20,927 bases of DNA from a virus: UHGV virus genome UHGV-0268707; one strand, written 5' to 3'. Position numbers and translations under genes: made by a program. How positions within the stretch are numbered: the stretch's first letter is position 1; each line of letters opens with the position of its first letter. Under the pieces are notes generated by a model. It was given only the letters and a program-made list of their open reading frames with translations. It was not told the DNA's origin and searched no databases. Shown piece after piece: positions 1 through 7,586 of this stretch.

Positions 1-669
1 TACAACGAAGTTGCCCGTAAAAACGCAAAATCAACCCTGTCATCGGGTATTGGTCTGTATATGACGGGGGCAGATGGTGAAGGCGGGGCTGAGGTGTATT
101 CAGCCGCAACCACGCGTGATCAGGCCAGAATCGTGTTTGAAGACGCCAAAAATATGGTCAGAAAAGCCCGGTCGACACTCGGGCGGTTGTTTGACTTCAA
201 CAAGCTGGCGATTTACCAGGAGCAGAGCGCATCAAAATTTGAACCGCTTTCCTCGGATGCAAACAACCTGGACGGTCTGAACATCCACTGCGCCATTATT
301 GATGAGCTGCATGCACATAAAACCCGTGACGTGTGGGACGTTCTGGAAACGGCAACCGGTGCCCGTCTGCAGTCCCTTTTATTTGGTATCACCACGGCAG
401 GGTTTAACAAGGAAGGGATTTGTTACGAGCAGCGTGATTACGCCATCAAGGTATTGCGTGGCTATAACAGCGACGTGGAGGGCGCTGTAAAAGACGACTC
501 TTACTTTGCGATCATTTACACCCTCGATGAGGGAGATGATCCGTTTGATGAAACGGTCTGGCAGAAAGCGAATCCTGGCCTGGGCATCTGTAAACGCTGG
601 GATGATCTGCGTCGTCTGGCGAAAAAAGCGAAGGAGCAGGTCTCTGCGCGGGTGAATTTTTTTACCAAG
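1..669 (+). pseudogene. terL: Prophage terminase large subunit, N-terminal portion (5' partial at window edge; reading frame interrupted by insertion of the element at about 662-669)
   Basis: Frame 1 is open from base 1. Its translation (YNEVARKNAKST...TTRDQARIVFEDAKNM...LFGITTAG...WQKANPGL...ARVNFFTK) aligns colinearly with the intact terminase at 13978..15639 (FIEVPRKNAKST...AVSRDQARIVFDDARQM...LFAITTSG...WIKANPNI...WVEMLTK). Similarity stops at codons FFTK (661..669); downstream the frame runs into AT-rich non-homologous sequence. Confidence 0.8.
659..669. repeat. Putative attL core (tTtTTACCAAg)
   Basis: Sequence TTTTTACCAAG at the exact point where terminase homology ends; it matches ttCTTACCAAa at the right junction, with 7 bp identical (TTACCAA). 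Confidence 0.45.
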
Positions 670-797
670 AAAGTAACATCACGCCGTAACAACAGTGCGA
701 TCTGTCCTGATTTTTTTAGTAACCAAATGAAAGAAAAAGATTTTTTCTTGTTCGTCGTTTTTGTTTTTTCTGGAAGGTTCTGGCTGTTTTCATCATT

Positions 798-821
798 TGT
801 GTATTGCACTGTGTATTGCAA
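798..821. repeat. Tandem 12-bp repeats TGTGTATTGCAC/TGTGTATTGCAA, candidate integrase arm-type or RDF binding sites (left end)
   Basis: Two adjacent copies directly upstream of the int start codon. The same motif recurs at 16061..16084 just inside the right end. Confidence 0.45.
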
Positions 822-839
822 AAACGGGTTATAAATCAC

Positions 840-2661: not shown

Positions 2662-3243
2662 ATGAATAAAAATATTGCCGTGACGGGCAAGGGTGACGCA
2701 CGTCATGTGAAAAAATTCTGTGATATTCGTGATCTGGTCGTTCTGCGCTTTGATGGTGTGAACGTTCGCGTGGTGTATCTGAACGGCGATCCGTGGTTTG
2801 TTGCAAAGGATGTTTGTGCGGCGCTTGAATTATCCAATTCACGCATGGCGTTGCAAGCTCTGGATGATGATGAAAGTAATACCGTAACTTTAACTTACGG
2901 TATTCGCGGAAATCCAAATCATAGCGTCGTTTCTGAATCTGGTTTTTACAAGCTGATTGCCAGAAGTCGCAAAGCTGCTACTCCTAGCACGTTCGCCCAT
3001 CGTTTCAGTAACTGGGTATTCAGAAATGTGATACCGGGTATCAGAAAAACGGGGGCTTATGGTATCCCGTGGGGCGCATTACAGGATTTTTCCCGCCGCA
3101 AAGAGCAATACCAGATAAGTGCCAGCGAGAAGGGGAGGGAGCTACAGGCATGTAAGCGCAAAAAGCGTGAGCTGGAGGAAGAAGAAAAAAGGCTGATACG
3201 TGAATACCAGCCTGAGTTTTACTTTGGTGAGCGTATTCAGTAA
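2662..3243 (+). CDS. Bro-N domain protein (antirepressor-like)
   Basis: N-terminal roughly 130 aa carry Bro-N hallmarks: LRFDGVNVRVVYLNGDPWFVAKDVCAALELSN...LDDDE...SESGFYKLIARSRKAATPSTFAHRFSNWVFRNVIPGIRKTGAY. C-terminus is charged and coiled. Confidence 0.8.
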   Translation: MNKNIAVTGKGDARHVKKFCDIRDLVVLRFDGVNVRVVYLNGDPWFVAKDVCAALELSNSRMALQALDDDESNTVTLTYGIRGNPNHSVVSESGFYKLIARSRKAATPSTFAHRFSNWVFRNVIPGIRKTGAYGIPWGALQDFSRRKEQYQISASEKGRELQACKRKKRELEEEEKRLIREYQPEFYFGERIQ

Positions 3244-3523
3244 CCACACGCGGTGTTGATTATACGGTACATCGTGTTGACCGGGAAGCTACCCACCAGC
3301 AAGGCAAAATCTTCTGCTAAAAAATGACATATGGCCAGTCGTCCGGAAAGCATGAAATTTTACAAAAATGGAAAATGAAGATTTTTATTGTGCTGGTGGG
3401 TAAAAACAAAAAGCGCCCCGTTGCCGGAGCGCCCTTGCGAACAATTAACCTACTGCGCAAAAAATGAATCTGTGCGGGGGGATTATATCAACCGTGGTCG
3501 AAATGACCATAGTTGCAGGATAA

Positions 3524-3556
3524 CAGGCAAAACAAAGGCCACCCGCTACGGTGGCC
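3524..3556 (-). terminator. Candidate rho-independent terminator for the leftward regulator transcripts
   Basis: GGCCACC-cgctac-GGTGGCC hairpin (3537..3556); on the minus strand it is followed by TTTGTTTTGCC. Confidence 0.35.
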
Positions 3557-3659
3557 CCTCGACACAAGCTACACGTTATCCCCAACGCATGAGCATAACC
3601 AACAATGCCACATTTACGGCTGGTGGGCAATGTGATCAGTGTGCTGGCTTGCTGGTGGG

Positions 3660-3857
3660 CTATTCCTGCTCTTTAGCATCGCCATGCTGCGATGTTTTCC
3701 AGGTATGCGATCCCATTTTTGTGCGCTTGTACTCTTTAAGGAACCTCTCAAGGACAAACGCACATGGCGCGAATCTTTCCTGTTCATGTTCGCTTACCGC
3801 GTTTTTGCGTTGTTTTTTCCTAGATGAAGATAATTTCTTTAATGATTTGTCAGTCAT
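3660..3857 (-). CDS. Small basic hypothetical protein (possible paralog of the adjacent regulator)
   Basis: 65-aa lysine-rich ORF whose last four codons (KEQE-stop) and about 12 nt of DNA are shared with the gene at 3915..4094. Weak RBS; function unknown. Confidence 0.35.
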   Translation of the reverse strand: MTDKSLKKLSSSRKKQRKNAVSEHEQERFAPCAFVLERFLKEYKRTKMGSHTWKTSQHGDAKEQE

Positions 3858-3914
3858 CGTAGATACCTGTAACCCAGTTCACCGCAGTTCACCGCACCAC
3901 GGCGCTGGTGACGG

Positions 3915-4094
3915 TTACTCCTGCTCTTTGGCCTTCCGGCGCTGGCGGCGTTTGATCTCACCTTCAAGCGCCGAAACGATAAATTGCCCAGTGCTTTCGC
4001 CTTCTTCCTTTAAATTTTCTACAGCGTCAGCTATTGCATGGGGTACTCGTGCCTCAAGTTTTTTGGATTTTCCATTAACTGCTTTCGTTGCCAT
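3915..4094 (-). CDS. Small ribbon-helix-helix-like DNA-binding protein, candidate repressor of the element
   Basis: 59 aa, MATKAVNGKSKKLEARVPHAIADAVENLKEEGESTGQFIVSALEGEI, consistent with a beta-strand plus two helices (RHH/Arc-like). AAGGA RBS 8 nt upstream of the ATG at 4094; reads away from the operator-containing promoter region. Confidence 0.5.
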   Translation of the reverse strand: MATKAVNGKSKKLEARVPHAIADAVENLKEEGESTGQFIVSALEGEIKRRQRRKAKEQE

Positions 4095-4115
4095 ATCTGA
4101 TTTCCTTGTTATTAG

Positions 4116-4195
4116 GTGGCTGACAGTATACACACAAGAAAATAGAAAAACACTATTGACGTGGCTGACACCTGTTACTAGTATAGTGGCTGACA
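4116..4195. repeat. Three direct copies of GTGGCTGACA (operator-like)
   Basis: Copies at 4116..4125, 4161..4170 and 4186..4195; the second and third extend to GTGGCTGACACCT and bracket the -35/-10 of the rightward promoter. Confidence 0.5.
4156..4184 (+). promoter_or_regulatory. Sigma70-like rightward promoter (TTGACG, 17 nt spacer, TAGTAT) overlapped by operator repeats
   Basis: TTGACG at 4156..4161 and TAGTAT at 4179..4184 with a 17-nt spacer; sits upstream of the small-ORF/primase operon. Confidence 0.45.
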
Positions 4196-4293
4196 CCTTT
4201 ATTGAGGTAATCGATGAAAAGACAAAGCCCGCAGGTGCTACCAACACCAACGGGCTTCTAACCACCAACGATAGCGAAAGTATCGAGGTAGCT

Positions 4294-4497
4294 ATGTTAA
4301 ATCATACCACACACCCGCAAGGGCGGGACTCGCACAACCTGAATAAATACATCTGGCGTTTTATCGCTCTGAGCACGGCACAACCGCGCGTGATTACCAT
4401 TGAGGCCACCAGCGAACAGGAAGCCCGCCAGCAATCCCCGGCTGGCTGCGTGATGATATTCGCCGCCCGTATTCTCCAGGAGGTGCGCCATGATTAA
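4294..4497 (+). CDS. Hypothetical protein (first gene of rightward operon)
   Basis: GAGGT RBS 5-9 nt upstream of ATG 4294; stop overlaps the next start. The 369-aa ORF-track call 3388..4497 in the same frame is rejected. Confidence 0.45.
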   Translation: MLNHTTHPQGRDSHNLNKYIWRFIALSTAQPRVITIEATSEQEARQQSPAGCVMIFAARILQEVRHD

Positions 4498-4705
4498 CCT
4501 GTCACTTACCGACCTTAACCGCATTCAGTTTCGTGAGAAATTCACCGGGCAGTTGCTGGTCAATGTGGATAAAGGTCGCGTGGTGTGTAATTACCACCTG
4601 CCAGATGAAGCCATTGTCGCAACAAGGGAATCATTACAGGAACTCGCAGAACGTGCCGGAATGATTAACGCGAATATTCAGGGGGGGGTGAGACATGTGC
4701 AATAA
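4490..4705 (+). CDS. Hypothetical protein
   Basis: AGGAGG RBS upstream of ATG 4490; start overlaps the preceding stop and its stop overlaps the next start. Confidence 0.55.
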   Translation: MINLSLTDLNRIQFREKFTGQLLVNVDKGRVVCNYHLPDEAIVATRESLQELAERAGMINANIQGGVRHVQ

Positions 4706-5154: not shown

Positions 5155-5469
5155 ATGAAAAAGAAAAATTCTGGCTTTACTGCCAGCGGCCTTCCTCGGC
5201 CTGAAATCCGCCCCGGCGATATTTTCCGGGATAAATACGGCAGCACGATAACGATTAAAACCGTCGATGATTTTCGTGTGACCTATATCCGCGAAGGTTA
5301 TGCGCATCCCTGCGTGTCGTCGCATATGCGCTTTGAAAGGGAATTCACCCTGGTAAGCAAAGCACCACCAGCGGACTTAAGCGACATCGACAGAATCATG
5401 CGCGTTACAGGTATGGAACGCATTAAGGCAGTACGTGAAATTATTCGTGAACGGGGAAAGGCAAAATGA
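5155..5469 (+). CDS. Hypothetical protein
   Basis: 104-aa ORF; its stop overlaps the primase start (ATGA). Confidence 0.55.
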   Translation: MKKKNSGFTASGLPRPEIRPGDIFRDKYGSTITIKTVDDFRVTYIREGYAHPCVSSHMRFEREFTLVSKAPPADLSDIDRIMRVTGMERIKAVREIIRERGKAK

Positions 5470-7586
5470 AACTGGCGCCGAACGTAAAACTGTTACCGAA
5501 AGATAAAGGCGAGGATGCAGTGATTTTTGCGGGGGATGACGCATACAGCCACGCAGAGCATTACATGCAGGGCGGAGAAGCCAGAAAGCGCGGCGACAAA
5601 ATACCACCTGTTTATCTCGGACGGCGTGACCTGGGTAATCTGGAAAACCTGCGTATTGTGGATGATGGTCGGTCACGCGCCATCGTCAGACGTGCCGGAA
5701 AACTGGATGACAAACTGGCGCTACAGATTGAAACCCTGCTGGCAGTGGCTGGTGTTAAGGAAGCCTGTTTTTGTGACGAGAACGGCGATTTACTGGAGGA
5801 CTGGACACCACAGCTTGCCCGACTGAAAGACGAATACGAGCGCGGGGAAAGTCTGGTGTTGCCCTTAAAGAAAAAAATCACAGAAAGCCAGGGCGATGAT
5901 GAATTAAAGCCCCGCGTTGAAAGCCGCGCCGATGGTGTTTTCTGGGTAACGCCAAAAGTGGACAAGCAGTCAGGCGAAATTATCCGGCCTGAGACGTGGT
6001 TATGTTCTCCGCTTGAACTACTGGGAACGGGGACGATCGGTAAAGAGCATTACCGCGTGATGCGCTGGAAAAAGCCAGCAAACCATGAAGTCATCACAAT
6101 GGCGATCCCATGTGGTGGCATTGGCGACCGTGACGGCTGGCGGTTGCTGAAAGACCACGGCCTGAACGTGACAACCAACGGCAAATACAGGGCTATCCTG
6201 GCTGACTGGATGCAGTTAAGCGGAAACCATGAGGAATGGCAGTTAAGCACAACAACGGGCTGGCATTTTGGCGCGTACATCATGCCGGACGGTTCGGTCA
6301 TTGGTGATTGCGAAAAGCCAGTCCTGTTTACCGGAAAAACGGCTGCTGTTAATGGTTATTCCGTGGCAGGAACGGCGGAGGGCTGGCGCGATACCGTTGC
6401 GCGGCTGGCTGGTGGTAATCCGTCCATGATGCTGGGTGTGGCGGTATCGTTATCTGCACCATTAATCGGGCTGGTGGGCGCTGACGGCTTCGGGGTACAT
6501 CTTTTCGAACAGTCATCGGCAGGTAAGACCACAACGCAGAACATCGCATCAAGTTTATGGGGAGAGCCGGACGCGCAGCGGCTGACCTGGTACGGCACAG
6601 CGTTAGGTATCGCCAACGAAGCAGAGGCACACAATGACGGGCTTTTACCCCTGGATGAAATAGGCCAGGCCGGAAACGCGCGGGAGGTGTCCACGTCAGC
6701 CTATACGCTGTTTAACGGTTCCGGGAAATTACAGGGGGCAAAGGACGGCGGCAACAGGGAGATAAAACACTGGCGAACGGTGGCAATCAGTACCGGAGAA
6801 ATGGACGTTGAAACATTCCTCAAAACGGAGGGGATAAAAGTCAAGGCGGGGCAGCTTGTCCGTCTGCTTAACGTGCCGATGGAAAAAGCCACGCAGTTTC
6901 ACGAATACAGCACCGGAAAGGCACACGCAGACGCGTTAAAGGATGCCTGGACAGAAAATCACGGGGCGGCGGGGCGTGAGTGGGTTAAATGGCTGGCAGA
7001 CCACCAGCAGGAGGCAAAGGATACGGTAAGGGCATGCCGTGAGCGGTGGCGCAACCTGATACCGGAGAGCTACGGCGAACAGGTTCACCGTGTGGGGGAA
7101 CGATTTGCCATGCTTGAGGCGGCGTTAGTGTTGTCCGGTCATATTACTGGCTGGGATGAGCAGGAATGCCGCGATGCCATACAGCATAATTTTAATGCCT
7201 GGGTGAAGGAGTTCGGCACGGGTAACAGGGAATTTAAACAGATGGTTGAACAGGCAGAAGCTTTTTTAGCGTCGTTCGGATTCAGCAGATACCTTCCGTG
7301 GCCCAATACCGACGAGCGTGATTTACCGATTAAAGAACTTGCCGGATACAGAAAGGGGAGTATCAGAAACGAAGATGACGAGTTCCGTTTTTACACGTTC
7401 CCGCATGTATTTGAGGGTGAGATAGCACAGGGATTTAATCCGTCTCACTTTGCCCGCGCGTTGAGTGCTGCCGGAATGCTGGAAGCGGGTAACGATCGCC
7501 GTTACAAGAAAAAGGCGCTCGGCAAAATTGGGGGGAAGCAGCATGTTTTTTACGTGCTGATGTTCCAGCCTGAGGCAGAAGATTAA
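5466..7586 (+). CDS. Replication initiation primase/helicase-like protein (DUF927-type P-loop NTPase)
   Basis: 706 aa. Central region TTTGWHFGAYIMPDGSVIG...GVHLFEQSSAGKTTTQNIASSLWGEP carries a Walker A-like GKT motif, and GLLPLDEIGQ a Walker B-like hhhhDE. Matches remembered DUF927 primase-helicase proteins of P4-like/PICI elements. Followed immediately by iterons. Confidence 0.75.
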   Translation: MKLAPNVKLLPKDKGEDAVIFAGDDAYSHAEHYMQGGEARKRGDKIPPVYLGRRDLGNLENLRIVDDGRSRAIVRRAGKLDDKLALQIETLLAVAGVKEACFCDENGDLLEDWTPQLARLKDEYERGESLVLPLKKKITESQGDDELKPRVESRADGVFWVTPKVDKQSGEIIRPETWLCSPLELLGTGTIGKEHYRVMRWKKPANHEVITMAIPCGGIGDRDGWRLLKDHGLNVTTNGKYRAILADWMQLSGNHEEWQLSTTTGWHFGAYIMPDGSVIGDCEKPVLFTGKTAAVNGYSVAGTAEGWRDTVARLAGGNPSMMLGVAVSLSAPLIGLVGADGFGVHLFEQSSAGKTTTQNIASSLWGEPDAQRLTWYGTALGIANEAEAHNDGLLPLDEIGQAGNAREVSTSAYTLFNGSGKLQGAKDGGNREIKHWRTVAISTGEMDVETFLKTEGIKVKAGQLVRLLNVPMEKATQFHEYSTGKAHADALKDAWTENHGAAGREWVKWLADHQQEAKDTVRACRERWRNLIPESYGEQVHRVGERFAMLEAALVLSGHITGWDEQECRDAIQHNFNAWVKEFGTGNREFKQMVEQAEAFLASFGFSRYLPWPNTDERDLPIKELAGYRKGSIRNEDDEFRFYTFPHVFEGEIAQGFNPSHFARALSAAGMLEAGNDRRYKKKALGKIGGKQHVFYVLMFQPEAED

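What the first reader, a model, noticed from the sequence alone, without database searches (positions are those of the whole stretch)
3660..4293. Compact control region: divergent promoters, three GTGGCTGACA operator copies and two small leftward regulators sharing the same C-terminal KEQE codons
Seen directly: three copies of GTGGCTGACA (4116, 4161, 4186) bracket a near-consensus rightward promoter (TTGACG, 17 nt, TAGTAT). A 59-aa RHH-like protein is transcribed leftward from just beside them, followed by a second small basic ORF; both end in KEQE-stop with about 12 nt of shared DNA (TCCTGCTCTTT), suggesting duplication. A tandem CAGTTCACCG x2 sits between them (3875..3894). This looks like the element's lysogeny-type switch, and it is unlike the larger master repressors I know from Gram-positive islands. 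An antitoxin-like role for the RHH protein paired with the second ORF cannot be excluded.
Basis: partly seen in the sequence, partly recalled or inferred. Interest (0 to 1): 0.5.

Follow-up and report, generated by a model that had tools for sequence, protein, structure and literature searches.

The report
Satellite repressor switch plus antisense RNA
This stretch looks like the on/off control region of a phage-parasitic island in E. coli: a tiny ribbon-helix-helix repressor with three matching DNA sites on the promoter of the island's replication genes, backed by a previously unnoticed antisense RNA related to SymR. That matters because no repressor has been identified for this class of islands.

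Summary
GTGGCTGACA occurs exactly three times, and only there. The repeats bracket a TTGACG-17-TAGTAT promoter, and two small leftward ORFs follow.

The window is a capsid-forming PICI satellite embedded in a prophage terL gene. The 59-aa ORF is a YlcI/YnfO-family protein with a ribbon-helix-helix fold.

In 60 related intergenic regions from many Enterobacterales genera, three 11-bp pseudo-palindromes sit at the same offsets. Their central 5 bp covary with the RHH beta-strand residues and not with AlpA. This is strong comparative evidence that the RHH dimer binds them, repressing the rightward icd-like-to-primase operon and its own promoter. The prototype EcCICFT073 carries the same module.

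It has abundant compensatory changes, G-U pairs only on the antisense strand, and reciprocal homology to SymR.

The second ORF is Escherichia-only and mosaic, and shows no toxin features. Its KEQE end is a 24-26-nt relic of an RHH gene's 3' end. The tandem 10-mer is a private duplication.

Verdict: interpretation partly supported; a new variant of known kinds; no experiments exist.

The parts
3915..4094 (-). 59-aa ribbon-helix-helix protein (YlcI/YnfO family), the candidate repressor. Beta strand is about residues 10-17 (SKKLEARV), helix A is 19-28, the G-E-S-T turn is 32-35, and the long helix B is 35-58 with an invariant EIKRRQR tail.
4116..4126 (.). Operator O1 (GTGGCTGACAG). It is the imperfect copy and overlaps the -10/+1 of the inferred leftward promoter, so it is the inferred autoregulation site.
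   Evidence: O1 sits at offset 22 from the RHH ATG in nearly all loci. It usually differs from O2/O3 at position 11, and often at another position.
4125..4130 (-). Inferred -10 of the RHH promoter P_L (TATACT on the - strand). There is no recognisable -35.
   Evidence: AGTATA is conserved at this position in 46 of 60 distinct intergenic regions, whatever the operator type. The promoter scan did not flag it.
4156..4184 (+). Rightward promoter P_R: TTGACG, 17 nt, TAGTAT. It drives icd-like and the genes through to the primase.
   Evidence: The -35 TTGAnG is present in 60 of 60 related regions, and a TAnnnT lies at 17-18 nt in 59 of 60.
4161..4171 (.). Operator O2 (GTGGCTGACAC). It starts at the last base of the -35 and fills the spacer.
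4186..4196 (.). Operator O3 (GTGGCTGACAC). It lies just after the -10 and covers the expected start site.
   Evidence: In other specificity types O3 is 22-36 bp from O2 and is sometimes inverted, as expected for a pseudo-palindrome.
4218..4293 (-). SymR-like cis-antisense RNA, about 76 nt, opposite the icd-like 5' UTR and Shine-Dalgarno. It has an outer helix and a hairpin whose loop carries the anti-SD in most relatives (in this allele CCUC lies 5' of that hairpin). The long hairpin (4228-4255) plus a U-run acts as terminator. Ends are inferred by alignment to K-12 SymR.
   Evidence: RNAalifold gives antisense -24.7 versus sense -3.75 kcal/mol. 97.7% of cells are paired, 16 of 23 pairs carry compensatory changes, and 0 of 500 shuffles match. 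Rfam SymR scores 26.9 bits here and 27.6-36.1 bits in 5 of 10 relatives at the same spot and strand, all below the gathering score of 61. Model R1, built from the satellites, finds the annotated K-12 symR at 37.7 bits, E 1e-9.
4301..4309 (-). Inferred promoter of the antisense RNA: an extended -10, TGgTATGAT, inside icd-like codons 3-6.
   Evidence: It aligns with model positions 1-6 (UAugCU), which in K-12 align with TAGAAT. That hexamer overlaps the symR -10 that Kawano et al. mutated.
4294..4497 (+). Icd-like gene, the first gene of the P_R operon and the target of the antisense RNA. Its stop overlaps the next ORF (4490-4705).
   Evidence: NCBIfam NF033153 E 2e-18. It is divergent from the RHH gene in many loci.
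3660..3857 (-). 65-aa basic ORF (phrog_21027) downstream of the RHH gene with no terminator between. It is an Escherichia-specific, mosaic accessory gene of unknown role.
   Evidence: phrog_21027 E 9e-48, with no Pfam or NCBIfam hit. Homologues occur only in E. coli and E. albertii, with swapped N- and C-terminal modules. The AF2 model is low-confidence and helical. It is absent from the 75 other loci.
3651..3674 (.). Copy A of a 24-26-nt direct repeat (copy B is 3904-3929). It is a relic of an RHH gene's 3' end fused onto the second ORF, that is, a recombination junction.
   Evidence: In E. coli UTME-3 the RHH gene itself ends with this DNA and the same downstream flank.
3904..3929 (.). Copy B of the direct repeat: the 3' end of the resident RHH gene plus 11 nt downstream.
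3875..3894 (.). Tandem CAGTTCACCG x2, a private 10-bp duplication that is not a conserved element.
   Evidence: Single copy in KFu019 and different sequence in CFT073. 0 of 80 loci carry it.
3534..3559 (-). Intrinsic-terminator-like hairpin that probably ends the leftward RHH-ORF2 transcript. A second one lies at 3409-3436.

Best explanation
This is the control region between the integration module (int, alpA, Bro-N) and the replication/early operon (icd-like through DUF4222 to primase) of an E. coli capsid-forming PICI satellite. It appears to have two layers.

(1) A 59-aa ribbon-helix-helix protein of the YlcI/YnfO family binds, as dimers through its beta-ribbon, three 11-bp pseudo-palindromes (GTGGC-T-GACAC). 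O2 fills the spacer of the rightward promoter P_R and O3 covers its start site, so occupancy excludes RNA polymerase and keeps the operon silent. O1 is an imperfect copy over the -10/+1 of the protein's own leftward promoter, which gives negative autoregulation at higher concentration.

(2) A SymR-family antisense RNA of about 76 nt starts just upstream of the icd-like start codon, from a promoter inside that gene. It pairs with the 5' UTR and Shine-Dalgarno of any P_R transcript and blocks translation of the first gene. Because the downstream genes overlap, this probably also has a polar effect on the operon.

Shown here: the fold, the conserved three-site architecture, the covariation between protein and operator, the RNA structure with covariation and strand asymmetry, and the homology to SymR.

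Inferred: actual binding, repression, autoregulation, the transcript ends, polarity, and how induction overrides the switch. The override may be AlpA-driven rightward read-through across the convergent RHH cassette.

The second leftward ORF is an accessory gene of unknown role and is not part of the core mechanism.
For: - Repeats are exact and unique, and the promoter is found by the scan.
- The protein has an RHH fold. Weak Pfam hits of family members include several RHH families.
- In 75 loci from Pectobacterium, Yersinia, Xenorhabdus, Serratia, Proteus, Kosakonia and others, the three sites sit at offsets of about 22, 67 and 89-102 from the RHH ATG.
- With the same beta strand, the central 5 bp of the operator are 97% identical while flanking DNA is only 72% identical. 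With a different beta strand they are 28% identical while flanks are 50%.
- Within a locus, O2 and O3 are 97% identical.
- The partial Mantel correlation of operator with beta strand, controlling for the rest of the protein, is r = 0.32, with 0 of 5000 permutations as high.
- Controlling for AlpA, r = 0.71 (0 of 5000). Operator versus AlpA, controlling for beta strand, is r = 0.003.
- Most sites have 3-5 of 5 palindromic pairs.
- The synteny int-alpA-(bro)-[RHH leftward]-[icd-like..primase rightward] is conserved.
- EcCICFT073 has the same module, with beta strand QALKARV and operator GTGGGCCACAC.
- In one search's table, 189 of 1334 paired cells are G-U (my sum of its G-U/U-G counts); these would be A-C mismatches on the sense strand.
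- The literature states that a global repressor in Gram-negative PICIs is unclear (PMC6092414).
Against: - There is no experimental evidence for binding, transcription starts or repression.
- The leftward promoter has only a conserved -10 and was not flagged by the scan.
- The O2-O3 spacing varies (22-36 bp) and O3 can be inverted, so any cooperative geometry is unclear.
- The RHH protein matches no Pfam RHH model above threshold, and Foldseek found nothing.
- The SymR match is far below Rfam's gathering score (26.9 against 61).
- In EcCICFT073, AlpA overexpression alone triggers replication. The RHH protein is therefore not the sole gatekeeper, or it is easily overridden.
- Gene and adjacent DNA are inherited together, so part of the covariation is linkage. 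The partial tests and the conserved-flank contrast argue against that as the whole cause.
Confidence: 0.72

Rival explanations
1. The module is mainly a local toxin-control or addiction cassette, not the satellite's global switch. Icd-like (a cell-division inhibitor) would be the toxin, the SymR-like RNA its type I antitoxin, and the RHH protein a transcriptional safety catch for that one gene. The replication genes would be driven chiefly by AlpA-dependent transcription.
For: The RNA is homologous to the SymR antitoxin RNA. The first gene is annotated as Icd-like. AlpA overexpression suffices for EcCICFT073 induction and replication. In some relatives the first gene beside the RHH gene is annotated as ash-family rather than icd-like.
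Against: Genes from icd-like to the primase overlap or abut (4490/4497, 4695/4705, 5466/5469), which suggests one operon from P_R. The module always sits at the integration/replication boundary. Toxicity of this Icd-like protein is untested.
Confidence: 0.2
2. The RHH protein is the antitoxin of a type II toxin-antitoxin pair whose toxin is the downstream 65-aa ORF.
Against: The ORF is absent from all 75 loci outside E. coli that carry the RHH-operator module, and from E. coli UTME-3. Its family is confined to Escherichia and has swapped termini. It has no Pfam or NCBIfam hit. The model is helical and low-confidence, not RelE-like. A 57-nt gap separates the genes.
Confidence: 0.04
3. The three repeats are binding sites for another protein of the element (AlpA, or iterons for the primase) and not for the RHH protein.
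For: AlpA is the known activator in these islands, and repeats near replication genes can be iterons.
Against: The operator core does not covary with AlpA once the RHH beta strand is controlled (partial r = 0.003). Elements whose AlpA proteins differ by 2-4% carry unrelated operators, and elements whose AlpA proteins differ by 47% share identical operators when the RHH strand is the same. The sites overlap the promoter elements, and the 5+1+5 symmetry fits an RHH dimer.
Confidence: 0.03
4. The conserved leader structure acts on the sense strand, as a P1 C4 / P4 CI-like immunity RNA processed from the P_R transcript.
For: P1 immI has c4 RNA upstream of icd. The HE-PICI paper reports C4/isrK hits in some PICIs. 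The hairpin loop GCUACC can pair with GGUAGC next to the SD.
Against: There is no C4 or isrK hit here or in 20 relatives. The sense-strand consensus fold is -3.75 kcal/mol against -24.7 for the antisense strand. 189 G-U cells would be A-C mismatches on the sense strand (my sum's table). The SymR homology is on the antisense strand.
Confidence: 0.05

Closest known systems
Phage P22 immI region (Mnt and Arc RHH repressors, Pant/Pmnt divergent promoters, sar antisense RNA)
   Different: There is no detectable sequence homology to Arc or Mnt and no Rfam sar hit. There are three dispersed single-dimer sites rather than one tetramer operator. The controlled operon starts with icd-like and runs into a primase, not an antirepressor. 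The host element is a satellite, not a phage.
SymE-SymR type I toxin-antitoxin locus of E. coli K-12 (Rfam RF01809; Kawano et al. 2007, PMC1891008)
   Same: A 77-nt cis-antisense RNA is made from a promoter embedded in the first codons of the target gene. It has two hairpins, and its last hairpin serves as terminator. In K-12 SymR and in most satellite relatives the first hairpin's loop carries the anti-SD; in this window's allele the anti-SD (CCUC) lies just 5' of it. Homology is reciprocal: the Rfam model hits the satellites, and the satellite model hits annotated symR at E 1e-9.
   Different: Scores are below Rfam's gathering threshold. The target is an Icd-like protein, not the AbrB-fold SymE. 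The sense promoter is guarded by RHH operators instead of LexA boxes. The context is a mobile satellite.
Phage P1 immI (c4 RNA - icd - ant) and satellite P4 immunity (CI RNA at PLE)
   Same: An RNA-based block on translation of the first gene (icd in P1) of an early operon. In P4 that operon leads to the primase. The position in the element corresponds to the P4 PLE region.
   Different: Those RNAs lie on the sense strand and are processed from the operon transcript. There is no C4 or isrK hit here. P4 has no protein repressor, whereas this element has an RHH protein.
Stl/Rpr master repressors of Gram-positive PICIs (SaPIs)
   Same: The gene lies at the boundary between the int side and the replication side, is divergent from the replication operon, and is a candidate keeper of the quiescent state.
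   Different: Stl proteins are much larger helix-turn-helix proteins relieved by phage antirepressor proteins. This is a 59-aa RHH protein. Its relief mechanism is unknown, and AlpA is the known inducer in Gram-negative PICIs.
Plasmid RHH copy-control repressors (CopG of pMV158, omega of pSM19035)
   Different: CopG is co-transcribed with rep, and omega binds contiguous heptads. Here the sites are 22-45 bp apart and the gene is divergent.

Membership tests
Ribbon-helix-helix (MetJ/Arc) DNA-binding superfamily | beta-alpha-alpha fold with an N-terminal strand | tested here: met
Ribbon-helix-helix (MetJ/Arc) DNA-binding superfamily | G-x-S/T/N turn at the N-cap of helix B | tested here: met
   G32-E-S34-T35 is nearly invariant in 26 homologues.
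Ribbon-helix-helix (MetJ/Arc) DNA-binding superfamily | Dimer whose paired beta strands read a (pseudo)symmetric site | tested here: inconclusive
   Dimerisation was not modelled and binding was not measured. Indirect support: the sites are 11-bp 5+1+5 pseudo-palindromes, and their central 5 bp covary with beta-strand residues 11-17.
Ribbon-helix-helix (MetJ/Arc) DNA-binding superfamily | Match to a curated RHH sequence model | tested here: not met
   No Pfam hit for this protein at E <= 1. Among relatives there are only weak hits, to RHH_1 (0.009), CB_ParB_C and PSK_trans_fac. There is no PDB sequence hit.
YlcI/YnfO family (NCBIfam NF041551) | HMM score above the curated cut-off | tested here: met
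   61.9 bits against cut-off 30, E 4e-17, residues 9-50. RefSeq annotates the KFu019, CFT073 and UTME-3 orthologues this way.
Type II toxin-antitoxin system with RHH antitoxin | Conserved adjacent co-oriented toxin gene | tested here: not met
   The downstream ORF is absent from the 75 non-E. coli loci and from UTME-3. It has no toxin family hit and a helical, low-confidence model.
SymR antisense RNA (Rfam RF01809) | Covariance-model score at or above the gathering score (61 bits) | tested here: not met
   26.9 bits in the window and 27.6-36.1 bits in 5 of 10 relatives.
SymR antisense RNA (Rfam RF01809) | Homology shown by reciprocal search, with the same two-hairpin architecture | tested here: met
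   Model R1, built only from satellite loci, hits annotated K-12 symR full length at 37.7 bits, E about 1e-9. The Rfam hits are full length (model positions 1-77) at the same place and strand.
SymR antisense RNA (Rfam RF01809) | [quoted passage not shown] | tested here: met
   The position is 4218-4293(-), opposite the icd-like 5' UTR. A TAnnnT hexamer inside the ORF aligns with TAGAAT in K-12, which overlaps the symR -10 that Kawano et al. mutated. Transcription itself was not tested.
SymR antisense RNA (Rfam RF01809) | Target is SymE (AbrB-fold toxin) | tested here: not met
   The target ORF is Icd-like (NF033153).
P1 C4 / P4 CI / IsrK immunity RNAs | Match to Rfam C4 or isrK on the sense strand of the leader | tested here: not met
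   No hit at gathering or at E <= 10 in the window, nor in 20 related loci.
Gram-negative PICI / capsid-forming, helper-embedded PICI | int + alpA + primase in one direction, own capsid/portal/terminase genes, inserted in a prophage late gene | tested here: met
   ORF map and Pfam hits. The near-identical KFu019 locus has an interrupted prophage terL. This matches the description in PMC10111431.
Stl/Rpr-type PICI master repressor | Large HTH repressor relieved by a helper-phage protein | tested here: not met
   The protein is a 59-aa RHH. Relief by a phage protein cannot be tested here.

The most novel reading that the evidence does not exclude
The YlcI/YnfO-type RHH protein and its three operators would be the long-missing immunity repressor of Gram-negative PICIs and related P4-like satellites. 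It would have diversified into about 20 specificity ('immunity') classes, which exchange between genera independently of AlpA. It would work together with a SymR-family antisense RNA. The chromosomal SymE-SymR toxin-antitoxin locus of E. coli would then be a domesticated copy of this satellite leader cassette, with LexA boxes replacing the RHH operators.
Probability: 0.35. Interest if true: 0.75.

Novelty: new variant of a known kind. Interest (0 to 1): 0.62.

Why it matters
Gram-negative PICIs, including the prototype EcCICFT073 and the capsid-forming islands, are described as lacking an identified repressor; only the activator AlpA is known (PMC6092414). This analysis points to a concrete candidate that is conserved across the family and easy to test: a 59-aa protein, three 11-bp sites and one ~76-nt RNA.

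The many operator/beta-strand classes offer a natural data set for an RHH recognition code. They also predict immunity groups among co-resident satellites.

The link to SymR gives the SymE-SymR system a plausible mobile-element origin. It also extends a narrowly defined Rfam family to many Enterobacterales.

Finally, it shows that small genes missing from older annotations may hold the regulatory core of these islands.

Tried and rejected
- Rfam at gathering thresholds found nothing in the window. No C4, isrK or sar hits appeared even at E <= 10.
- Pfam found nothing for either small ORF.
- A PDB sequence search with the RHH family profile found nothing.
- tblastn of the RHH protein against 50,697 phage records gave no match, so it is not a phage gene in that collection.
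- The second ORF's structure model had pLDDT 63, too poor for a fold search.
- I rejected the toxin-antitoxin reading.
- I rejected AlpA sites or iterons as the identity of the repeats.
- I rejected a sense-strand C4/CI-like RNA.
- I rejected the tandem 10-mer as a regulatory element.
- I rejected gene duplication as the source of the KEQE ends.
- A 15-aa upstream ORF (4214-4261) has a counterpart in CFT073 but no consistent equivalent in other genera, so I make no claim for it.
- Literature searches found no paper on YlcI/YnfO function, on an RHH repressor in PICIs, or on SymR-like RNAs opposite icd-like genes. The library excludes most subscription journals.
Full report
CONTEXT. The window is an E. 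coli phage satellite. It carries an integrase (804-2063), two AlpA-family genes, a Bro-N gene (2662-3243), the region in question, an Icd-like gene (4294-4497) and several small overlapping ORFs. These are followed by DUF4222, a DUF927 primase (5466-7586), SSB, and its own capsid, protease, portal, HNH and terminase genes. The nearest complete genome, E. coli KFu019, is 96% identical. There the element interrupts a prophage terminase large-subunit gene. The window is therefore a capsid-forming, helper-embedded PICI of the kind described by Alqurainy et al. and by Mageeney et al..

THE OBSERVATION. GTGGCTGACA occurs exactly at 4116, 4161 and 4186 and nowhere else in the window. With one mismatch allowed there are 6 matches against 1.2 expected, and 0 of 100 shuffles reach 6. 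The promoter scan reports TTGACG-17-TAGTAT at 4156-4184. The ORFs at 3915-4094(-) and 3660-3857(-) both end in KEQE. The tandem CAGTTCACCG x2 lies at 3875-3894.

THE 59-AA PROTEIN.
- It matches NCBIfam YlcI/YnfO (NF041551) at 61.9 bits against a cut-off of 30, and the function-unknown phrog_949. It has no Pfam hit.
- An AlphaFold model built from 26 homologues has pLDDT 88.7, with an extended N-terminus and helices at 19-28 and 35-58.
- The G-E-S-T turn before helix B is nearly invariant.
- The weak Pfam hits of family members include several RHH families.
- The RHH assignment therefore holds at the level of fold. Helix B is unusually long and ends in an invariant EIKRRQR motif whose role is unknown.

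THE REPEATS ARE ITS OPERATORS (COMPARATIVE EVIDENCE). A scan of one genome per species returned 75 loci from Pectobacterium, Yersinia, Xenorhabdus, Serratia, Proteus, Kosakonia, Enterobacter, Dickeya, Hafnia and others. Nearly all share a three-site layout:
- One site lies about 22 nt upstream of the RHH start codon.
- One starts at the last base of a conserved -35 (TTGAnG).
- One lies 22-36 bp further on, sometimes inverted.

The sites are 11-bp 5+1+5 pseudo-palindromes of the form GTGnn-n-nnCAC, which fits one two-fold-symmetric RHH dimer per site.

Their sequence changes with the beta strand of the protein. Examples are KKLEARV with GTGGCTGACAC, KRFDVRV with GTGTC[CG]GACAC, QTIAARV with GTGTTCAACAC, Q[AS]LK[AS]RV with GTGGGCCACAC, QQLNARF with GTGCGATTCAC, QMTTVRI with GTGTATTTCAC and LQVSVRL with GTGGTGTTCAC. 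There are about 20 classes in all.

Among 58 non-identical loci:
- Pairs with the same beta strand share 97% of the central 5 bp but only 72% of flanking DNA.
- Pairs differing at three or more of seven strand residues share 28% of the central 5 bp, which is chance level, but 50% of the flanks.
- Within a locus, O2 and O3 are 97% identical.
- The partial Mantel correlation of operator with beta strand, controlling for the rest of the protein, is 0.32, and 0 of 5000 permutations reach it.

The operators do not follow AlpA. Controlling for AlpA, the operator-strand correlation is 0.71 (0 of 5000). Controlling for the strand, the operator-AlpA correlation is 0.003. Elements whose AlpA proteins differ by 2-4% carry unrelated operators.

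The promoter elements stay constant across classes:
- The -35 TTGAnG is present in 60 of 60 regions.
- A TAnnnT lies 17-18 nt later in 59 of 60.
- AGTATA (TATACT on the minus strand) sits at the edge of O1 in 46 of 60.

This is the classic pattern of repressor/operator immunity specificities. I take RHH binding to these sites as well supported but not demonstrated.

LIKELY MECHANISM, LAYER 1. O2 occupies the spacer of P_R and O3 its start region, so bound dimers should exclude RNA polymerase, as Arc and CopG do (established knowledge). O1 overlaps the conserved minus-strand TATACT and the expected start of the RHH transcript. It is systematically the poorest copy, with position 11 a G and often one more mismatch. 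That suggests autoregulation at higher repressor levels. P_L itself is only inferred: it has no -35 and the scan did not flag it. P_R most likely drives icd-like through to the primase, because successive genes overlap or abut. The synteny int-alpA-(bro)-[RHH leftward]-[icd-like...DUF4222-primase rightward] is conserved.

LINK TO THE PROTOTYPE. EcCICFT073 in strain CFT073 has the same module. It comprises a YlcI/YnfO gene (WP_000190587), a divergent Icd-like gene, beta strand QALKARV and operators GTGGGCCACAC. These small genes carry late-series RefSeq locus tags. [quoted passage not shown] AlpA overexpression alone induces EcCICFT073 replication. The RHH layer must therefore be overridable, for instance by AlpA-driven rightward transcription reading across the convergent RHH cassette; this is inference. 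I found no paper on YlcI/YnfO function or on an RHH repressor in PICIs.

The leader between O3 and the icd-like start is strongly conserved.
- On 58 sequences, RNAalifold gives -24.7 kcal/mol for the antisense strand and -3.75 for the sense strand.
- For a three-helix structure on the antisense strand, 97.7% of cells pair and 16 of 23 pairs show compensatory changes. All five measures exceed 500 of 500 shuffles, and the slid controls collapse to 33-48% paired.
- Summing the G-U and U-G counts's table gives 189 of 1334 cells. These would be A-C mismatches on the sense strand.
- Rfam's SymR model gives a full-length, sub-threshold match at window 4221-4293(-) of 26.9 bits. It gives 27.6-36.1 bits at the same place and strand in 5 of 10 relatives, against a gathering score of 61.
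- In the reciprocal test, a covariance model built only from the satellite loci finds the annotated symR gene of E. coli K-12 full length at 37.7 bits, E about 1e-9.
- In that alignment, the conserved TAnnnT at model positions 1-6 aligns with TAGAAT in K-12, which overlaps the symR -10 that Kawano et al. mutated. Model position 14 aligns with the annotated symR 5' end.
- By homology, the window RNA runs from about 4293 to about 4218. It would be made from an extended -10 (TGgTATGAT, 4301-4309) inside icd-like codons 3-6. It ends at the 4228-4255 hairpin plus a U-run.
- In most relatives the anti-SD (CUCC) sits in the loop of the first hairpin. In this allele CCUC lies just 5' of that hairpin.
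- It should therefore block translation of icd-like, as SymR does for symE. Polarity on the overlapping downstream genes is a further inference, by analogy with P1 c4-icd-ant.

THE SECOND ORF AND THE SHARED KEQE CODONS.
- The 65-aa ORF belongs to phrog_21027 and has homologues only in E. coli and E. albertii.
- The family is mosaic, with two alternative C-termini and at least two N-termini.
- It is absent from all 75 loci of other species and from E. coli UTME-3. Its model is helical and of low confidence.
- In UTME-3 the RHH gene itself ends with AAAGAGCAGGAATAG followed by the same flank that follows the second ORF in the window.
- The 24-26-nt repeat (3651-3674 and 3904-3929) is therefore a relic of another RHH allele's 3' end at a recombination junction, not a duplication of a regulator. 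CFT073's version of the ORF ends differently.
- No terminator separates the two genes. Terminator-like hairpins follow at 3534-3559 and 3409-3436, so co-transcription is likely. The ORF's function remains unknown.
- The tandem 10-mer is absent from the closest relative.

COMPARISON WITH KNOWN SYSTEMS. Functionally the region most resembles P22 immI: RHH repressors at divergent promoters plus the sar antisense RNA. It also resembles P1 immI and P4 PLE immunity, where RNA controls an operon starting with icd or leading to the primase. It is not a member of those families, since there is no sequence or Rfam match. The RNA is a distant homologue of SymR but fails Rfam's threshold and has a different target. 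The protein is a member of the uncharacterised YlcI/YnfO family and of the RHH superfamily by fold. It occupies the place of Stl/Rpr in Gram-positive PICIs but is unrelated to them.

VERDICT. The core idea, an RHH repressor with three operators forming the element's switch, gains strong comparative support. The 'two regulators', 'duplication' and 'antitoxin' ideas do not. An additional SymR-like antisense layer is present. Nothing has been tested experimentally. The main uncertainty is whether this is the island's global switch or a local safety catch on the icd-like gene.

Noticed in passing
window 61-834 and 16169 onward; L001 5345-6373: The satellite sits inside a prophage terminase large-subunit gene. 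The truncated TerL N-terminal part lies to the left of the integrase, and prophage portal/protease/capsid genes lie to the right of the island. This is the helper-embedded PICI configuration already described (PMC10111431).
   Followed up: partly
L080 (E. coli K-12 NC_000913.3) 3823-3960: The symE 5' UTR and SymR cassette of K-12 is homologous to the satellite leader. LexA-box-like sequence (TACTGatgatatataCAG) sits where the satellites have RHH operators, and SymE's first residues (MTDTHSIAQP) loosely resemble the common Icd-like N-terminus (MADIQSTQTRP). This suggests a mobile-element origin for the symER regulatory cassette.
   Followed up: partly
window 3409-3509, - strand: A promoter-like site (TGGTCA-16-TATAAT with TG, 3509-3482) is followed about 45 nt later by a strong terminator hairpin (3436-3409). 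This could be a small leftward transcript. The stretch is conserved in EcCICFT073 (L078 about 8005-8110).
   Followed up: no
L078 8755-8775; L007, L010, L028, L042 just after O3; window 4193-4208 (degenerate): Many relatives have a perfect palindrome CACCTTGA-N4-5-TCAAGGTG that starts inside O3. It is either a 5'-terminal stem-loop of the P_R transcript or a site for another protein. It is weak in this window.
   Followed up: no
NC_004431.1 1380242-1381052 (L078 8243-9053): In CFT073 the YlcI/YnfO gene, the Icd-like gene and the small downstream gene carry late-series RefSeq locus tags (C_RS30120, C_RS30125, C_RS30800). This suggests they were added after the original annotation, which may be why the module was not examined in the founding PICI study.
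   Followed up: partly
NZ_CP074987.1 around 1898938-1899479 (hit H24): In some E. coli relatives the features under the match are annotated as YlcI/YnfO family, a hypothetical protein and 'ash family protein' (the P4 epsilon-like helper derepressor), with no Icd-like gene listed. The gene layout there was not examined.
   Followed up: no
L022, L025, L026, L047, L050 (about 5450-6125, - strand): The Rfam int-alpA RNA motif (RF02996) is found above threshold between int and alpA in several related loci but not in this window.
   Followed up: no
window 4214-4261; L078 8777-8821: A 15-aa upstream ORF with its own Shine-Dalgarno spans the long hairpin. CFT073 has a 14-aa one ending at the same TAA. 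No consistent equivalent was seen in other genera.
   Followed up: partly
protein alignment A1, residues 46-52: The RHH family has an invariant EIKRRQR motif at the end of an unusually long second helix, beyond the canonical RHH domain. Possible roles are higher-order assembly between distant operators, extra DNA contacts, or a partner-binding site.
   Followed up: no
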